DNA of 47,971 nt, taken from the IMG/VR virus record IMGVR_UViG_2623620505_000002; one strand, 5' to 3'. Shown here piece after piece: positions 10,885 through 12,779 of the stretch. Under the pieces are notes generated by a model. The model saw nothing but the letters and a program-made list of their open reading frames with translations, had not been told where the DNA came from and searched no databases. A program made the position numbers and the translations under genes. Position 1 is the first letter of the stretch; each line of letters opens with the position of its first letter. Source of the stretch: a virus (lineage: Duplodnaviria; Heunggongvirae; Uroviricota; Caudoviricetes).

Positions 10885-11307
10885 ATGGCAAAAGTATTTA
10901 CACAAGAAGAGCGGGAAAAAATTAAAGGGCAGGTGGTTGAACTCGTGCGCCAGAGCGGTCGTGAGACGTTACGGCAACTGGAAGCTAAAACAGGTGCGAC
11001 AAGATATCTGATGAGCGTTCTCGCCAGAGAGCTGGTTGCCAGTGGCGATGTATACAACTCTGGCTATGGGTTATTTCCCTCTGAACAGGCTCGTAAGGAT
11101 TGGCAAAACGCCCGCAAAAAACTATCCAGGGCAAAGGTGAAAAAAACGGTTGTGGTTGATCCTGACCTTATCTGGTCATTACCAGACGGAGAAATACGCC
11201 GCTATGACAGGCGTCTGAATATAATCTGTAGCGAGTGCCGGCAGAGTGAGGTTATGCAGCGTGTGCTGGCGTTCTATCAGGGTAATTATCAGGAGGTGAT
11301 GCTGTGA
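10885..11307 (+). CDS. Hypothetical nin-region protein
   Basis: ATG at 10885 with GGAGG RBS; 140 aa; CxxC motif (CSECRQ). Confidence 0.5.
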   Translation: MAKVFTQEEREKIKGQVVELVRQSGRETLRQLEAKTGATRYLMSVLARELVASGDVYNSGYGLFPSEQARKDWQNARKKLSRAKVKKTVVVDPDLIWSLPDGEIRRYDRRLNIICSECRQSEVMQRVLAFYQGNYQEVML

Positions 11308-11777
11308 GTACACCGGTAACCATTCTTGATATGTGCTGTGGCAGCCGTATGTTCTGGTTCGATAAGAATGACGACCGGGCGATATTTAGCGATATCAGAA
11401 AGGAAGAGCACACATTGTGTGATGGACGATGCCTGATTATCAGTCCTGATCTGATAGCTGATTTTCGTGCACTACCATTTGCAGACGCATCTTTTTCGAT
11501 GGTTATATTCGACCCTCCGCATCTTGAGCGTGTTGGTGATAACGCCTGGATGGGAAAGAAATATGGACGGCTGAATAAAGATACCTGGCGTGATGATTTG
11601 CGGCAGGGATTTAAAGAAGCCTTTCGTGTGTTGCGTCCATCCGGCGTTCTGATTTTTAAATGGAATGAAACGCAAATACCTGTTCGCCAGATATTGGTGC
11701 TGACCGACAGAAAACCTGTTATCGGTCAACGAACAGGAAAAAACGATAAAACCCACTGGATTATTTTTATGAAATAG
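11304..11777 (+). CDS. Small phage DNA methyltransferase (N6-adenine/N4-cytosine type, DPPH catalytic motif)
   Basis: GTG start with AGGAGG RBS; motif IV-like IFDPPH; 157 aa, consistent with small phage Dam-like orphan methylases. Confidence 0.65.
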   Translation: MSTPVTILDMCCGSRMFWFDKNDDRAIFSDIRKEEHTLCDGRCLIISPDLIADFRALPFADASFSMVIFDPPHLERVGDNAWMGKKYGRLNKDTWRDDLRQGFKEAFRVLRPSGVLIFKWNETQIPVRQILVLTDRKPVIGQRTGKNDKTHWIIFMK

Positions 11778-11921
11778 GCATCCAGTGAGTAGGTTAGTAA
11801 GGTTACAGATACGTATATCTGAATAATTAAATTCAGTTCTGTAAATAAAATTTAATCCTTAACCGGAGGGATTTCTGCACCCTCAGAACATCAGGAGGCC
11901 GCCCGAAAGGGCGGTAGTGAA

Positions 11922-12104
11922 ATGCGAAAGTTCAAAATAATTATTGAAACGGGAATAGCTGGTGGGGATTTTGAGGATGTATTCGAAGTGGACGATGACG
12001 CAACACCTGATGAAATTCATGACGAAGCAAAAGAAATTTTCTTTAACTACTGCAATTACTCATATCACGAAATAAAAGACGAGGAGGAAGGACAAAATGG
12101 CTGA
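11922..12104 (+). CDS. Very acidic 60-aa protein (DNA-mimic-like composition)
   Basis: 18 Asp/Glu against 5 Lys/Arg/His in 60 residues; preceded by GCCGCCC gaaa GGGCGG stem-loop; downstream of the methyltransferase. Confidence 0.45.
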   Translation: MRKFKIIIETGIAGGDFEDVFEVDDDATPDEIHDEAKEIFFNYCNYSYHEIKDEEEGQNG

Positions 12105-12267
12105 TTTTGGTTCAACTAAATACAACGTCAGTTTTGAAGAATGGCATGAACTGTTAATGGATTATGCAGAGTTACGTGGAGGAAGTACAGCTGAAGCCTG
12201 GCGTGATGACTACGAAGCAGGAAAAACACCTGTCGAAGCATATTGTGATGAGTGGGGCGATGAATGA
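12097..12267 (+). CDS. Second very acidic small protein (56 aa), overlapping both neighbours; below the ORF-track cut-off
   Basis: Hand translation MADFGSTKYNVSFEEWHELLMDYAELRGGSTAEAWRDDYEAGKTPVEAYCDEWGDE; start overlaps the previous stop and its stop overlaps the next start (ATGA). Confidence 0.4.
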   Translation: MADFGSTKYNVSFEEWHELLMDYAELRGGSTAEAWRDDYEAGKTPVEAYCDEWGDE

Positions 12268-12779
12268 GCGAGATTAATTATCAGGAAGGGCATGAAACGG
12301 TAGGGCAGGCAAAACCAGTTGCATGGCGATATCGCTATGTGAAAAAAGGCGTTACGGACTTTCAGGAGAAGATGTGGATTGGTGACTGGAAATATGTACC
12401 GACAAAAGAGGATTGCAACGACAGGCCGAGCTATGAGATTCAGGCCTTATTCACTGCCCCGCCAGTTCCGGTGACATCAGAAGGACTGGTTAAAGCCGTG
12501 CGCTTTTATGAACAGGTAAAGCGTGAGAATCCACCAGTCGAAACAGGAGCATGGAAAGATGCTGTTGATTGGGTACTCAAAGAGGCCTGCAGTGCTGTCA
12601 TTCTGGGTAAAGCCGACAACCCACCAGCTTCCGGCAATCAGGTTAGCGAATTAACAATGTGGGTTAAACTACTGGTCAGTCAACTGAAAAAAGCTAATCC
12701 AGACTGCAAATTACCGGAGATGGCGATGGACTACCTGAAGCGAAACGGACTGATAAGCGTGGAGGATGTTTTACGGTGA
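12264..12779 (+). CDS. Hypothetical nin-region protein
   Basis: 171-aa ORF translationally coupled to the acidic ORFs; no motif recognised. Confidence 0.55.
   Translation: MSEINYQEGHETVGQAKPVAWRYRYVKKGVTDFQEKMWIGDWKYVPTKEDCNDRPSYEIQALFTAPPVPVTSEGLVKAVRFYEQVKRENPPVETGAWKDAVDWVLKEACSAVILGKADNPPASGNQVSELTMWVKLLVSQLKKANPDCKLPEMAMDYLKRNGLISVEDVLR

What the first reader, a model, noticed from the sequence alone, without database searches (positions are those of the whole stretch)
11304..12779. Methyltransferase followed by two overlapping, extremely acidic small ORFs: candidate anti-restriction island
A small DPPH-motif DNA methyltransferase is followed by a 60-aa ORF (about 18 acidic against 5 basic residues) and a 56-aa ORF (about 15 acidic against 4 basic) that was below the ORF-track cut-off and overlaps both neighbours. 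Extreme acidity in small early phage proteins is the hallmark of DNA-mimic anti-restriction or anti-defence proteins such as Ocr and ArdA. Co-location with an orphan methylase suggests a layered anti-RM module. The 171-aa protein that follows is of unknown function.
Basis: partly seen in the sequence, partly recalled or inferred. Interest (0 to 1): 0.6.

Follow-up and report, generated by a model that had tools for sequence, protein, structure and literature searches.

The report
Small acidic prophage genes beside methylase
In an E. coli lambda-like prophage, a small stand-alone DNA methylase sits next to a mobile two-gene cassette for two tiny, very acidic proteins; both are real, conserved genes of unknown function, plausibly inhibitors of host DNA-handling or defence proteins, but nothing yet shows that they block restriction.

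Summary
Both small ORFs are real genes, with dN/dS of 0.03-0.17 against relatives. The first is Pfam DUF7167, predicted beta-beta-alpha-beta with an acidic tail. The second is an unnamed three-helix family whose diverged members all stay net acidic.

The "anti-restriction island" reading is only partly supported.
- The methylase matches REBASE-derived type II/orphan methyltransferase models over its full length.
- The acidic pair is a separate mobile cassette (about 11819-12285). It occurs in 1747 of 5426 complete E. coli genomes, and only about 20% of those have it next to this methylase.
- Each small gene also travels alone. DUF7167 occurs in Klebsiella, Enterococcus and Pseudomonas phages. 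The 56-aa family occurs in Ackermannviridae, KP34-like phages and 560 plasmids (516 conjugative, mostly IncI2).
- Neither resembles Ocr or ArdA in sequence or predicted fold, and no publication covers them.

Best reading: two independent small acidic binder or decoy proteins of mobile elements, targets unknown. They are reasonable candidates for an anti-defence screen, not a demonstrated system.

The parts
10870..11307 (+). DUF977 ('LygF', Ren-like) gene, the upstream neighbour. Its stop overlaps the methylase start (GTGA).
   Evidence: Pfam DUF977 at E 1.3e-29; phrog_142 'Ren-like exclusion protein'. In Rac 442/2 the acidic pair follows this gene directly, with no methylase between.
11304..11777 (+). 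Orphan class I SAM-dependent, type II-like DNA amino-methyltransferase of 157 aa. Motif I is ILDMCCGS (residues 7-14) and motif IV is DPPH (residues 70-73). There is no room for a separate target-recognition domain.
   Evidence: PADLOC MTase_II at E 6.5e-73 and oMTase at E 4.9e-50; phrog_954 at E 1.5e-85; Pfam Methyltransf_11 at 23.7 bits against a cut-off of 21.2. There are 7438 homologues across Enterobacterales, with the N-terminus conserved. AGGAGG lies 7 nt before the GTG start.
11819..11921 (+). Leader that travels with the acidic-gene cassette: an AT-rich stretch, a GAGGG...CCCTC hairpin, then AGGAGG (11893-11898), a 7-bp GAAA-loop hairpin (11898-11915), AGTGAA and the ATG.
   Evidence: Phage matches to the cassette begin at query position 620, which is window 11819. 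The leader is conserved in five relatives in different contexts. The RNA fold has a z-score of -2.39. No consensus promoter or terminator was found.
11922..12104 (+). orf60: DUF7167 family protein, 60 aa, net charge -13. Predicted beta-beta-alpha-beta fold with a C-terminal acidic tail.
   Evidence: Pfam DUF7167 at 53.5 bits against a cut-off of 24.4; phrog_1997. dN/dS is 0.04-0.18 against relatives. AlphaFold2 pLDDT is 79. Homologues of 39-68% identity occur in Klebsiella, Enterococcus and Pseudomonas phages, all 55-57 aa and all acidic.
12097..12267 (+). orf56: unnamed small acidic family (phrog_519), 56 aa, net charge -11. Predicted three-helix bundle. Conserved motif F-E-E-W...A...G...W-R-x-D-Y-E-x-G-x-T-P...D-E-W. 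Probably translationally coupled to orf60, with GAGGAGGAAGG before the ATG.
   Evidence: phrog_519 at E 4.8e-21; no Pfam match. dN/dS is 0.03-0.17. AlphaFold2 pLDDT is 69. A profile search of 1.84 billion representatives found 71 clusters, almost all stand-alone proteins of 48-75 aa; 28 diverged stand-alone representatives have net charge -3 to -15. The family is in 197 phage records and 560 plasmids.
12264..12779 (+). orf171: variable downstream neighbour of unknown function (phrog_660). Only its first 8 or so codons belong to the mobile cassette.
   Evidence: phrog_660 at E 1.8e-73; no Pfam, NCBIfam or PADLOC match. It shows no similarity to the gene in the same position in ArgO145 beyond MSEI[N/D]YQ.
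12836..14032 (-). ISEc20 (IS110 family) transposase gene, an insertion just downstream. Context only.
   Evidence: RefSeq annotation of the 99.9%-identical locus in E. coli VG12A2.

Best explanation
The region is a mosaic of independent accessory modules. It lies in the rightward (pR-type) delayed-early operon of a Rac-like lambdoid prophage of E. coli, between the replication genes and the Q antiterminator.

Module 1 is an orphan, minimal DNA amino-methyltransferase. It would modify replicating phage DNA and so protect progeny in the next host. This role is inferred; the target sequence is unknown.

Module 2 is a self-contained cassette at about 11819-12285. It has a conserved leader and two probably translationally coupled genes. 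One encodes a DUF7167 protein (beta-beta-alpha-beta fold plus acidic tail). The other encodes an unnamed three-helix protein.

Shown here: both are real genes under purifying selection, their acidity is conserved across diverged relatives, and each occurs on its own in unrelated mobile elements.

Inferred: each protein works alone as a small stoichiometric binder. It would use its negative surface to occupy a nucleic-acid-binding site of a host or rival-element protein, which is a decoy or host-takeover function. The target need not be a restriction enzyme. Adjacency to the methylase is a product of lambdoid mosaicism, not a functional unit.
For: Real genes:
- dN/dS is 0.03-0.17 for both ORFs at dS 0.18-1.0.
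- PGAP annotates both and both match PHROG families.
- Shine-Dalgarno sequences and 8-nt and 4-nt overlaps are present.

Conserved acidity:
- DUF7167 relatives at 39-68% identity keep 14-19 D+E against 3-7 K+R, and all keep an acidic C-terminal tail.
- 28 diverged stand-alone orf56 relatives have net charge -3 to -15, mean -9.4.

Independence and mobility:
- The pair is in 1747 of 5426 E. coli genomes and the methylase in 854, but the contiguous arrangement is in about 356.
- The pair occurs without the methylase in ArgO145, vB_EcoS-689R5, pPE4 and Rac 442/2.
- DUF7167 occurs alone in Guernseyvirinae, Brockvirinae and a Pseudomonas phage.
- orf56 occurs alone in Ackermannviridae and phiKDA1 and in IncI2, IncT and MOBH plasmids; 516 of the 560 plasmids are conjugative.

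Stand-alone architecture: the profile search of 1.84 billion representatives found 71 clusters and no informative domain fusions.

Precedent: T7 gp5.9 is an acidic DNA mimic that inhibits both RecBCD and MukBEF (PMC7617805).

Methylase.
Against: - There is no experimental evidence for either small protein. Searches for DUF7167, DUF1187 and WP_000753050 found no papers. The sequences are absent from the supplements of two large anti-defence studies.
- Model confidence is moderate (pLDDT 79 and 69), and no coordinates were available to examine charge patterning.
- In phage Cba120 the orf56 homologue lies just downstream of the major capsid gene. That is not a typical early anti-defence position.
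- Both genes are frameshifted in the inducible phage PhiR42_1, so they are dispensable.
- Acidity alone is also compatible with regulators, adaptors or chaperones.
Confidence: 0.42

Rival explanations
1. The two acidic proteins are Ocr/ArdA-type DNA mimics that block type I (or other) restriction-modification or BREX enzymes. Together with the orphan methylase they form a layered anti-restriction island.
For: - Extreme and conserved acidity.
- An orphan DNA methylase lies next door, and the two are adjacent in about 356 genomes.
- orf56 homologues sit on conjugative plasmids. In IncI2 pSH146_65 the gene is roughly the 24th listed gene on the side of mobC and the relaxase gene that would be the leading side. 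The first 30 leading-region ORFs are enriched in anti-defence genes and orphan methylases (PMC11541004).
Against: - No match to any Pfam anti-restriction family or to solved structures by sequence.
- The monomers are 56-60 aa compact domains, whereas Ocr is a 116-aa monomer whose dimer mimics 24 bp of bent DNA (PMC3439906).
- Linkage to the methylase is absent in about 80% of genomes that carry the pair.
- The genes are delayed-early here, after the replication genes.
- The position of oriT and the direction of transfer in IncI2 were not determined.
Confidence: 0.12
2. They are inhibitors of host DNA-end-processing nucleases or DNA-maintenance complexes, analogous to Gam or T7 gp5.9. They would protect linear replication or recombination intermediates rather than counter restriction.
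For: - In Guernseyvirinae, DUF7167 overlaps the start of a 454-aa exonuclease gene that is followed by a Gp2.5-like annealing protein. This is the position that gam holds relative to lambda bet and exo (the lambda order is from established knowledge).
- In Enterococcus Brockvirinae, DUF7167 overlaps the end of another gene annotated as an exonuclease.
- In the KP34-like phage phiKDA1 the 51-aa orf56 homologue lies between the DNA polymerase and exonuclease genes. T7 genes 5.5-5.9 occupy that interval (established knowledge).
- gp5.9 is an acidic DNA mimic that inhibits RecBCD and MukBEF (PMC7617805).
- This prophage carries a RecE-type exonuclease but no annotated Gam.
Against: - The evidence is positional analogy only.
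- The two 'exonucleases' are of different size and type.
- The plasmid and Ackermannviridae contexts show no such neighbours.
Confidence: 0.13
3. They are small developmental or host-physiology modulators, like the lambda exo-xis region proteins. They would tune lysogenisation or prophage induction, or the establishment of plasmids, without any role in defence evasion.
For: - In Stx phages such as ArgO145 the cassette lies in the early-left accessory region among Ead/Ea22-like genes.
- Genes of the exo-xis region influence lysogenisation and induction (PMC3824215, PMC7093339).
- In IncI2 plasmids the orf56 homologue follows a CaiF/GrlA-family regulator gene at the head of the transfer-gene block.
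Against: - There is no homology to orf60a, orf61, orf63, orf73, ea8.5 or ea22. tblastn against 50,697 phage records did not hit lambda itself.
- The families also occur in strictly virulent phages (Ackermannviridae, KP34-like, Brockvirinae), which make no lysogeny decision.
Confidence: 0.17
4. They are accessory subunits, chaperones or specificity factors for a neighbouring gene product, either the methylase or the variable downstream protein.
For: - Tight overlaps with neighbours suggest co-translation.
- The 157-aa methylase has no room for a target-recognition domain.
Against: - Both neighbours vary or are absent in most occurrences.
- Each small gene occurs alone in unrelated elements.
- 248-aa forms of the methylase carry their own C-terminal extension, which is unrelated to either ORF.
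Confidence: 0.05
5. The small ORFs are chance reading frames, or only the RNA of this stretch is functional.
For: - They are short.
- orf56 has no Pfam family.
- Both are frameshifted in PhiR42_1.
Against: - dN/dS is 0.03-0.17 with many synonymous changes.
- Protein-level conservation extends to 39-50% identity in distant phages and plasmids, with length preserved.
- No Rfam family matches the stretch.
Confidence: 0.02

Closest known systems
T7 Ocr (DNA-mimic inhibitor of type I restriction enzymes and BREX)
   Same: A phage-encoded, very acidic protein with no enzymatic motifs. The net charge per residue is similar.
   Different: Ocr is 116 aa, and its dimer imitates about 24 bp of bent DNA (PMC3439906). 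orf60 and orf56 are 56-60 aa, and the predicted folds are beta-beta-alpha-beta and a short three-helix bundle. There is no sequence or fold match. Ocr is made first after infection, whereas these genes are delayed-early in this prophage.
ArdA (anti-restriction protein of conjugative elements)
   Same: An acidic protein carried by mobile elements. Like ArdA, the orf56 family is found on conjugative plasmids.
   Different: No match to the ArdA family or fold. ArdA is a three-domain elongated dimer (PMC2731889). The IncI2 homologue lies after repA at the head of the transfer block, not in a proven leading region.
T7 gp5.9 (acidic DNA mimic that inhibits RecBCD and MukBEF)
   Same: A small, acidic, stand-alone phage protein. 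In the KP34-like phage phiKDA1 the orf56 homologue lies between the polymerase and exonuclease genes, the interval that gene 5.9 occupies in T7 (T7 gene order from established knowledge; PMC7617805).
T7 Gp2 (RNA polymerase inhibitor) and T4 Dmd (antitoxin against RnlA/LsoA)
   Different: Profile comparison of DUF7167 with Gp2 gives a probability of 0.26%, so there is no detectable homology. The similarity is at the level of a common small fold.
Orphan DNA methyltransferases of phages and plasmid leading regions
   Same: The 157-aa enzyme matches REBASE-derived type II and orphan methyltransferase models over its full length. It has motif I and DPPH and has no nuclease partner. Orphan methylases are known to protect phages and plasmids (PMC11541004).
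   Different: It is unusually small, with no recognisable target-recognition domain. Its target and activity are untested, and there is no solved relative.
Lambda exo-xis region small proteins (orf60a, orf61, orf63, orf73, Ea8.5, Ea22)
   Same: Small accessory genes in the same kind of mosaic early regions of lambdoid and Stx phages (PMC3824215).
   Different: No sequence relationship was detected. The families here also occur in virulent phages and plasmids.

Membership tests
Ocr-type DNA mimic | Sequence membership in the Ocr family | tested here: not met
   A Pfam scan at E up to 0.1 gives only DUF7167 (plus a sub-threshold AnkX_ins match) for orf60 and nothing for orf56. PDB sequence searches found nothing related.
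Ocr-type DNA mimic | Elongated dimer whose surface carboxylates imitate the phosphates of about 24 bp of bent DNA | tested here: not met
Ocr-type DNA mimic | Large excess of acidic over basic residues | tested here: met
   18/5 and 15/4, conserved in diverged relatives.
Ocr-type DNA mimic | Inhibition of type I restriction-modification enzymes or BREX | not testable with these tools
   Needs plating assays or binding assays.
ArdA anti-restriction | Sequence or fold membership in the ArdA family | tested here: not met
ArdA anti-restriction | Location in the leading region of conjugative elements | tested here: inconclusive
   The orf56 homologue in IncI2 pSH146_65 is about 15.7 kb from mobC and roughly the 24th listed ORF on the side away from the relaxase gene. 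oriT and the direction of transfer were not determined, and the PLSDB gene table is incomplete.
Pfam DUF7167 | Score above the gathering threshold over the whole domain | tested here: met
   orf60 scores 53.5 bits against a cut-off of 24.4, with residues 2-53 on profile positions 1-60 of 60. NCBI names the identical protein 'DUF7167 family protein'.
phrog_519 / orf56 family | Profile match and the conserved motif F-x-x-W ... W-R-x-D-Y-E-x-G-x-T-P | tested here: met
   phrog_519 at E 4.8e-21. W16, W35, Y39, G42 and P45 are conserved in 86-100% of the aligned sequences (the window protein plus 28 diverged representatives).
DNA amino-methyltransferase (N6-adenine / N4-cytosine type), orphan | SAM-binding motif I and catalytic motif IV (D/N/S)PP(Y/F/W/H) | tested here: met
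   ILDMCCGS at residues 7-14 and DPPH at residues 70-73. G13, D70, P71, P72 and H73 are invariant in 22 homologues.
DNA amino-methyltransferase (N6-adenine / N4-cytosine type), orphan | Full-length match to curated DNA methyltransferase models | tested here: met
   PADLOC MTase_II PDLC03288 at E 6.5e-73 (residues 6-157 on profile 3-161 of 169). oMTase PDLC03730 at E 4.9e-50. phrog_954 at E 1.5e-85.
DNA amino-methyltransferase (N6-adenine / N4-cytosine type), orphan | Target-recognition domain | tested here: inconclusive
   The 157 aa hold only the catalytic core. 248-aa relatives carry an uncharacterised C-terminal extension. There is no solved relative to map it on.
DNA amino-methyltransferase (N6-adenine / N4-cytosine type), orphan | No cognate restriction endonuclease gene nearby | tested here: met
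   The neighbours are DUF977 and the acidic cassette. No nuclease is annotated from the replication genes to the IS element, and the neighbours give no PADLOC hits.
DNA amino-methyltransferase (N6-adenine / N4-cytosine type), orphan | Methylation of DNA at a defined base or sequence | not testable with these tools
   Needs SMRT or nanopore methylome analysis after expression.
T7 Gp2 family | Detectable homology to Gp2 | tested here: not met
T7 gp5.9 family | Sequence or fold similarity to gp5.9 | tested here: not met

The most novel reading that the evidence does not exclude
The 56-aa family (orf56, phrog_519) would be a new, broadly distributed counter-defence or DNA-mimic protein used by very different mobile elements. 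These include lambdoid prophages in a third of E. coli genomes, virulent Ackermannviridae and KP34-like phages, and IncI2 (mcr-1-type), IncT and MOBH conjugative plasmids. DUF7167 would be a second, unrelated inhibitor with a Gp2/Dmd-like fold. Together they would form a portable two-inhibitor cassette.
Probability: 0.25. Interest if true: 0.65.

Novelty: new member of a known kind. Interest (0 to 1): 0.4.

Why it matters
If either protein proves to be an inhibitor of a host defence or DNA-processing enzyme, it would add a new family to the short list of very small acidic decoys. It would also be unusually widespread: about 32% of complete E. coli genomes carry the cassette. The 56-aa family is on hundreds of IncI2 plasmids, described in PMC8053102 as the most common vectors of mcr-1, so it could bear on plasmid establishment as well as phage host range. 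The minimal 157-aa orphan methylase has thousands of relatives in Enterobacterales. It is a tractable case for asking how a methyltransferase without a recognition domain chooses its targets. If nothing is found, this is an ordinary piece of lambdoid accessory mosaic.

Tried and rejected
- A profile search of the PDB with the DUF7167 alignment. It returned only designed repeat proteins and AnkX at non-significant scores.
- PDB sequence searches for orf56, and for the methylase alone or as a profile. Nothing significant was found.
- A fold search of the orf56 model against viral predicted structures. Only uncharacterised homologues came up, from Erwinia, Dickeya and Pseudomonas phages.
The afdb50 fold library was unavailable.
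- The idea that orf171 is an Ead/Ea22-like protein. It shows no similarity to ArgO145 gp13 beyond 8 residues, so I rejected it.
- The idea that the ORF after DUF7167 in a Klebsiella prophage is an orf56 relative. No alignment was found.
- Literature. There is nothing on DUF7167, DUF1187 or WP_000753050. The sequences are absent from the supplements of Silas et al. 2025 and Samuel et al. 2024. The IncI2 fitness paper tested only the neighbouring CaiF/GrlA gene.
- Pfam scans of nine neighbours of orf56 homologues on IncT and MOBH plasmids found nothing.
- No consensus promoter or terminator and no Rfam family in the leader.
- Charge-pattern analysis in three dimensions was not possible because model coordinates are not exposed.
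Full report
**Where the window comes from.** The stretch is 99.9% identical to a chromosomal prophage of E. coli VG12A2 that lies next to potC. The gene order is integrase, excisionase, RecE-type exonuclease, dicB, a LexA-family repressor, cro-like, ydaT-like, an O-like replication gene, a DnaC-like gene, DUF1627, DUF977, methyltransferase, DUF7167, two hypothetical genes, ISEc20, hokD, DUF968, rusA and Q. The finding therefore lies in the rightward delayed-early operon of a Rac-like lambdoid prophage, in the position of the nin region.

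**Checking the observation.** The four ORFs are at the stated coordinates.
- orf60 has 18 D+E against 5 K+R (pI 4.09).
- They are the two most net-acidic of the 173 ORFs of at least 50 aa in the window.
- orf56 overlaps orf60 by 8 nt and orf171 by 4 nt (ATGA).
- GAGGAGGAAGG precedes the orf56 start.
- DPPH is at residues 70-73 of the methylase and is invariant in 22 homologues. So is motif I, ILDMCCGS, at residues 7-14.
It is better than the RefSeq start at 11349, which removes motif I.

**Are the small ORFs genes?** Yes.
- Against homologues in ArgO145, vB_EcoS-689R5, pPE4, Rac 442/2 and IncI2 plasmids, synonymous changes far outnumber non-synonymous ones. dN/dS is 0.04-0.16 for orf60 and 0.03-0.17 for orf56, at dS from 0.18 to 1.0.
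- orf60 is a member of Pfam DUF7167 (53.5 bits, cut-off 24.4) and of phrog_1997. orf56 matches phrog_519 and has no Pfam family.
- Both are frameshifted in the inducible phage PhiR42_1. They are therefore dispensable accessory genes.

**The methylase.**
- It matches PADLOC models built for type II and orphan DNA methyltransferases over its full length, at E 6.5e-73 and 4.9e-50. It also matches phrog_954 'DNA methyltransferase' at E 1.5e-85.
- The family is large, with 7438 proteins at E up to 0.001. The best 120 are 75-97% identical and come from across Enterobacterales. They occur as forms of about 160 aa or as 248-aa forms with an uncharacterised C-terminal extension.
- No solved relative exists, and no nuclease gene is nearby.
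- 'Orphan DNA amino-methyltransferase' is well supported. Its target, and how a 157-aa core recognises DNA, are unknown.

**Is this an island?**
- megablast shows that the conserved unit is a cassette of about 470 nt, window 11819-12285. It holds a leader, orf60, orf56 and the first 8 or so codons of the next gene.
- The cassette covers at least 80% of its length in 1747 of 5426 complete E. coli genomes. The methylase does so in 854. The contiguous arrangement does so in about 356.
- So roughly 20% of genomes with the cassette have it next to this methylase. The estimate is approximate, because the long query also needed part of orf171.
- In Rac 442/2 the cassette follows DUF977 directly. In ArgO145 and related Stx2a phages it lies in the early-left accessory region among Ead/Ea22-like genes.
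- The downstream gene also differs between contexts.
- The adjacency is frequent but is lambdoid mosaicism, not a conserved functional unit.

**Each small gene also travels alone.**
- tblastn finds DUF7167 in 36 phage records. Besides the lambdoid ones, these are a Klebsiella prophage (68% identity), Klebsiella Guernseyvirinae (47%), Enterococcus Brockvirinae (40%) and a Pseudomonas phage (39%). It is always a stand-alone ORF of 55-57 aa with an acidic tail.
- In Guernseyvirinae it overlaps the start of an exonuclease gene that is followed by a Gp2.5-like annealing protein. In Brockvirinae it overlaps the end of another gene annotated as an exonuclease.
- orf56 relatives occur in 197 phage records, mostly Ackermannviridae such as Cba120 orf183, and in the KP34-like phage phiKDA1 between the polymerase and exonuclease genes.
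- They also occur in 560 plasmids, of which 516 are conjugative. About 420 plasmids carry an 83%-identical copy; those listed are IncI2-size and the two inspected are IncI2, where the gene lies in the operon CaiF/GrlA regulator, DUF1187, orf56-like, SPFH, NfeD, type IV secretion genes.
- More distant copies lie in IncT and MOBH plasmids, inside long co-directional arrays of unannotated small genes.
- A profile search of 1.84 billion representatives found only 71 clusters. Nearly all are stand-alone proteins of 48-75 aa, and the 28 diverged stand-alone ones I tallied are all net acidic.

**Structure.**
- AlphaFold2 predicts beta-beta-alpha-beta plus a short acidic C-terminal helix for orf60 (pLDDT 79). 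It predicts three helices for orf56 (pLDDT 69).
- Ocr and ArdA do not appear. A profile comparison with Gp2 rules out detectable homology, at probability 0.26%.
- Viral predicted structures give only uncharacterised relatives.

**What it most likely is.**
- Shown: two real, independently mobile small genes whose products keep a strong negative charge through deep divergence. They have no enzymatic motifs and no domain fusions, and they are carried by temperate phages, virulent phages and conjugative plasmids.
- Inferred: each is a stand-alone binder that blocks a nucleic-acid-binding surface of a host or rival protein.
- Small acidic phage mimics act on many targets. T7 gp5.9 acts on RecBCD and MukBEF, Gp2 on RNA polymerase and Ocr on restriction enzymes and BREX (PMC7617805). 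Acidity therefore does not identify restriction enzymes as the target.
- The positional hints (exonuclease neighbours, and the interval between polymerase and exonuclease) point weakly towards nuclease inhibition.
- The plasmid location hints weakly at establishment functions. The first 30 leading-region ORFs are enriched in anti-defence genes (PMC11541004), but I did not determine oriT or the direction of transfer in IncI2.
- A developmental role like that of the exo-xis genes (PMC3824215, PMC7093339) is possible for the lambdoid copies. It fits poorly with the presence of both families in virulent phages.

**Verdict.** The specific interpretation as an Ocr/ArdA-like anti-restriction island is not supported as a family assignment or as a conserved module, but it is not excluded as a function. 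The two families are catalogued yet uncharacterised, and no publication was found. I rate this a reasonable but unproven anti-defence candidate. The 56-aa family is the more interesting of the two because of its breadth.

Noticed in passing
window 11304-11349: RefSeq/PGAP starts the methyltransferase at 11349 (142 aa, WP_225092187), which cuts off SAM-binding motif I (ILDMCCGS). All 22 aligned homologues keep this N-terminus. GTG 11304 has AGGAGG 7 nt upstream and overlaps the DUF977 stop as GTGA.
   Followed up: yes
window 11893-11921: The only strong Shine-Dalgarno sequence for orf60 (AGGAGG, 11893-11898) is 23 nt from the ATG. A 7-bp GAAA-loop hairpin (11898-11915) lies in between and would bring the two close if it forms. 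From memory, this resembles the split ribosome-binding site of T4 gene 38. The segment is nearly invariant in six relatives (a few single-base differences, one of them a C-to-T in the stem that keeps a G-U pair), so covariation cannot be tested.
   Followed up: partly
window 11819-12285: The mobile unit has sharp mosaic boundaries. Matches in many phages begin at 11819 (ctgaataattaaatt...) and end at about 12285. That is just after the first 8 or so codons (MSEI[N/D]YQ) of whatever gene follows, which suggests a recombination junction inside the start of the downstream gene.
   Followed up: partly
window 12836-14032 (- strand): An ISEc20 (IS110 family) transposase gene is inserted directly downstream of orf171. 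A relative without the matching 3' end (for example JNEC-KY178) suggests that the insertion is recent.
   Followed up: no
L005 (PP818812.1, 'Actinobacillus phage vB_Apl-pPE4') 3001-3778: A phage recorded as infecting Actinobacillus pleuropneumoniae carries this E. coli lambdoid cassette at about 93% nucleotide identity, and its neighbouring genes look lambdoid. The host attribution looks doubtful, or the transfer is very recent.
   Followed up: no
L006 2501-4025; L007 2501-4025; L009 1971-2671: DUF7167 genes overlap genes annotated as exonucleases in two unrelated phage groups. In Klebsiella Guernseyvirinae the gene is upstream of a 454-aa exonuclease and a Gp2.5-like annealing protein. In Enterococcus Brockvirinae it is downstream of a 180-aa exonuclease.
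   Followed up: partly
L013 7021-9701 (IncI2 pSH146_65); L014 7294-9974: On IncI2 plasmids the orf56 homologue (WP_000753050, 58 aa) lies in the conserved operon CaiF/GrlA-family regulator, DUF1187, orf56-like, SPFH, NfeD, just before the type IV secretion genes. It is about 15.7 kb from mobC and the relaxase gene. Gene callers sometimes fuse it to DUF1187, which probably explains the 143-position phrog_519 profile.
   Followed up: partly
L018 1-12171; L019 1-12174: In IncT (Rts1-like) and MOBH Klebsiella plasmids the orf56 homologue sits in long co-directional arrays of small genes. The nine neighbouring proteins I scanned have no Pfam family.
   Followed up: partly
window 12097-12267: The window's orf56 has a 2-aa deletion (GGSTAEAW against the common GGSAADAEAW) in the loop between helices 1 and 2. 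Most relatives are 58 aa.
   Followed up: no
L002 (phage PhiR42_1) 6724-7085: Both small acidic genes are interrupted by frameshifts in this inducible ECOR13 phage, although its methylase gene is annotated, at 118 aa. The cassette is therefore dispensable for phage viability.
   Followed up: partly
methyltransferase homologues P0161, P0179, P0211, P0231, P0239: About a third of the closest methylase relatives are 248-251 aa. They carry a conserved C-terminal extension of about 85 aa (…ELESLLL…VWPAEV…HHQRRLKHHINRMWLEKMP…) of unknown function, which is absent from the window's enzyme.
   Followed up: no
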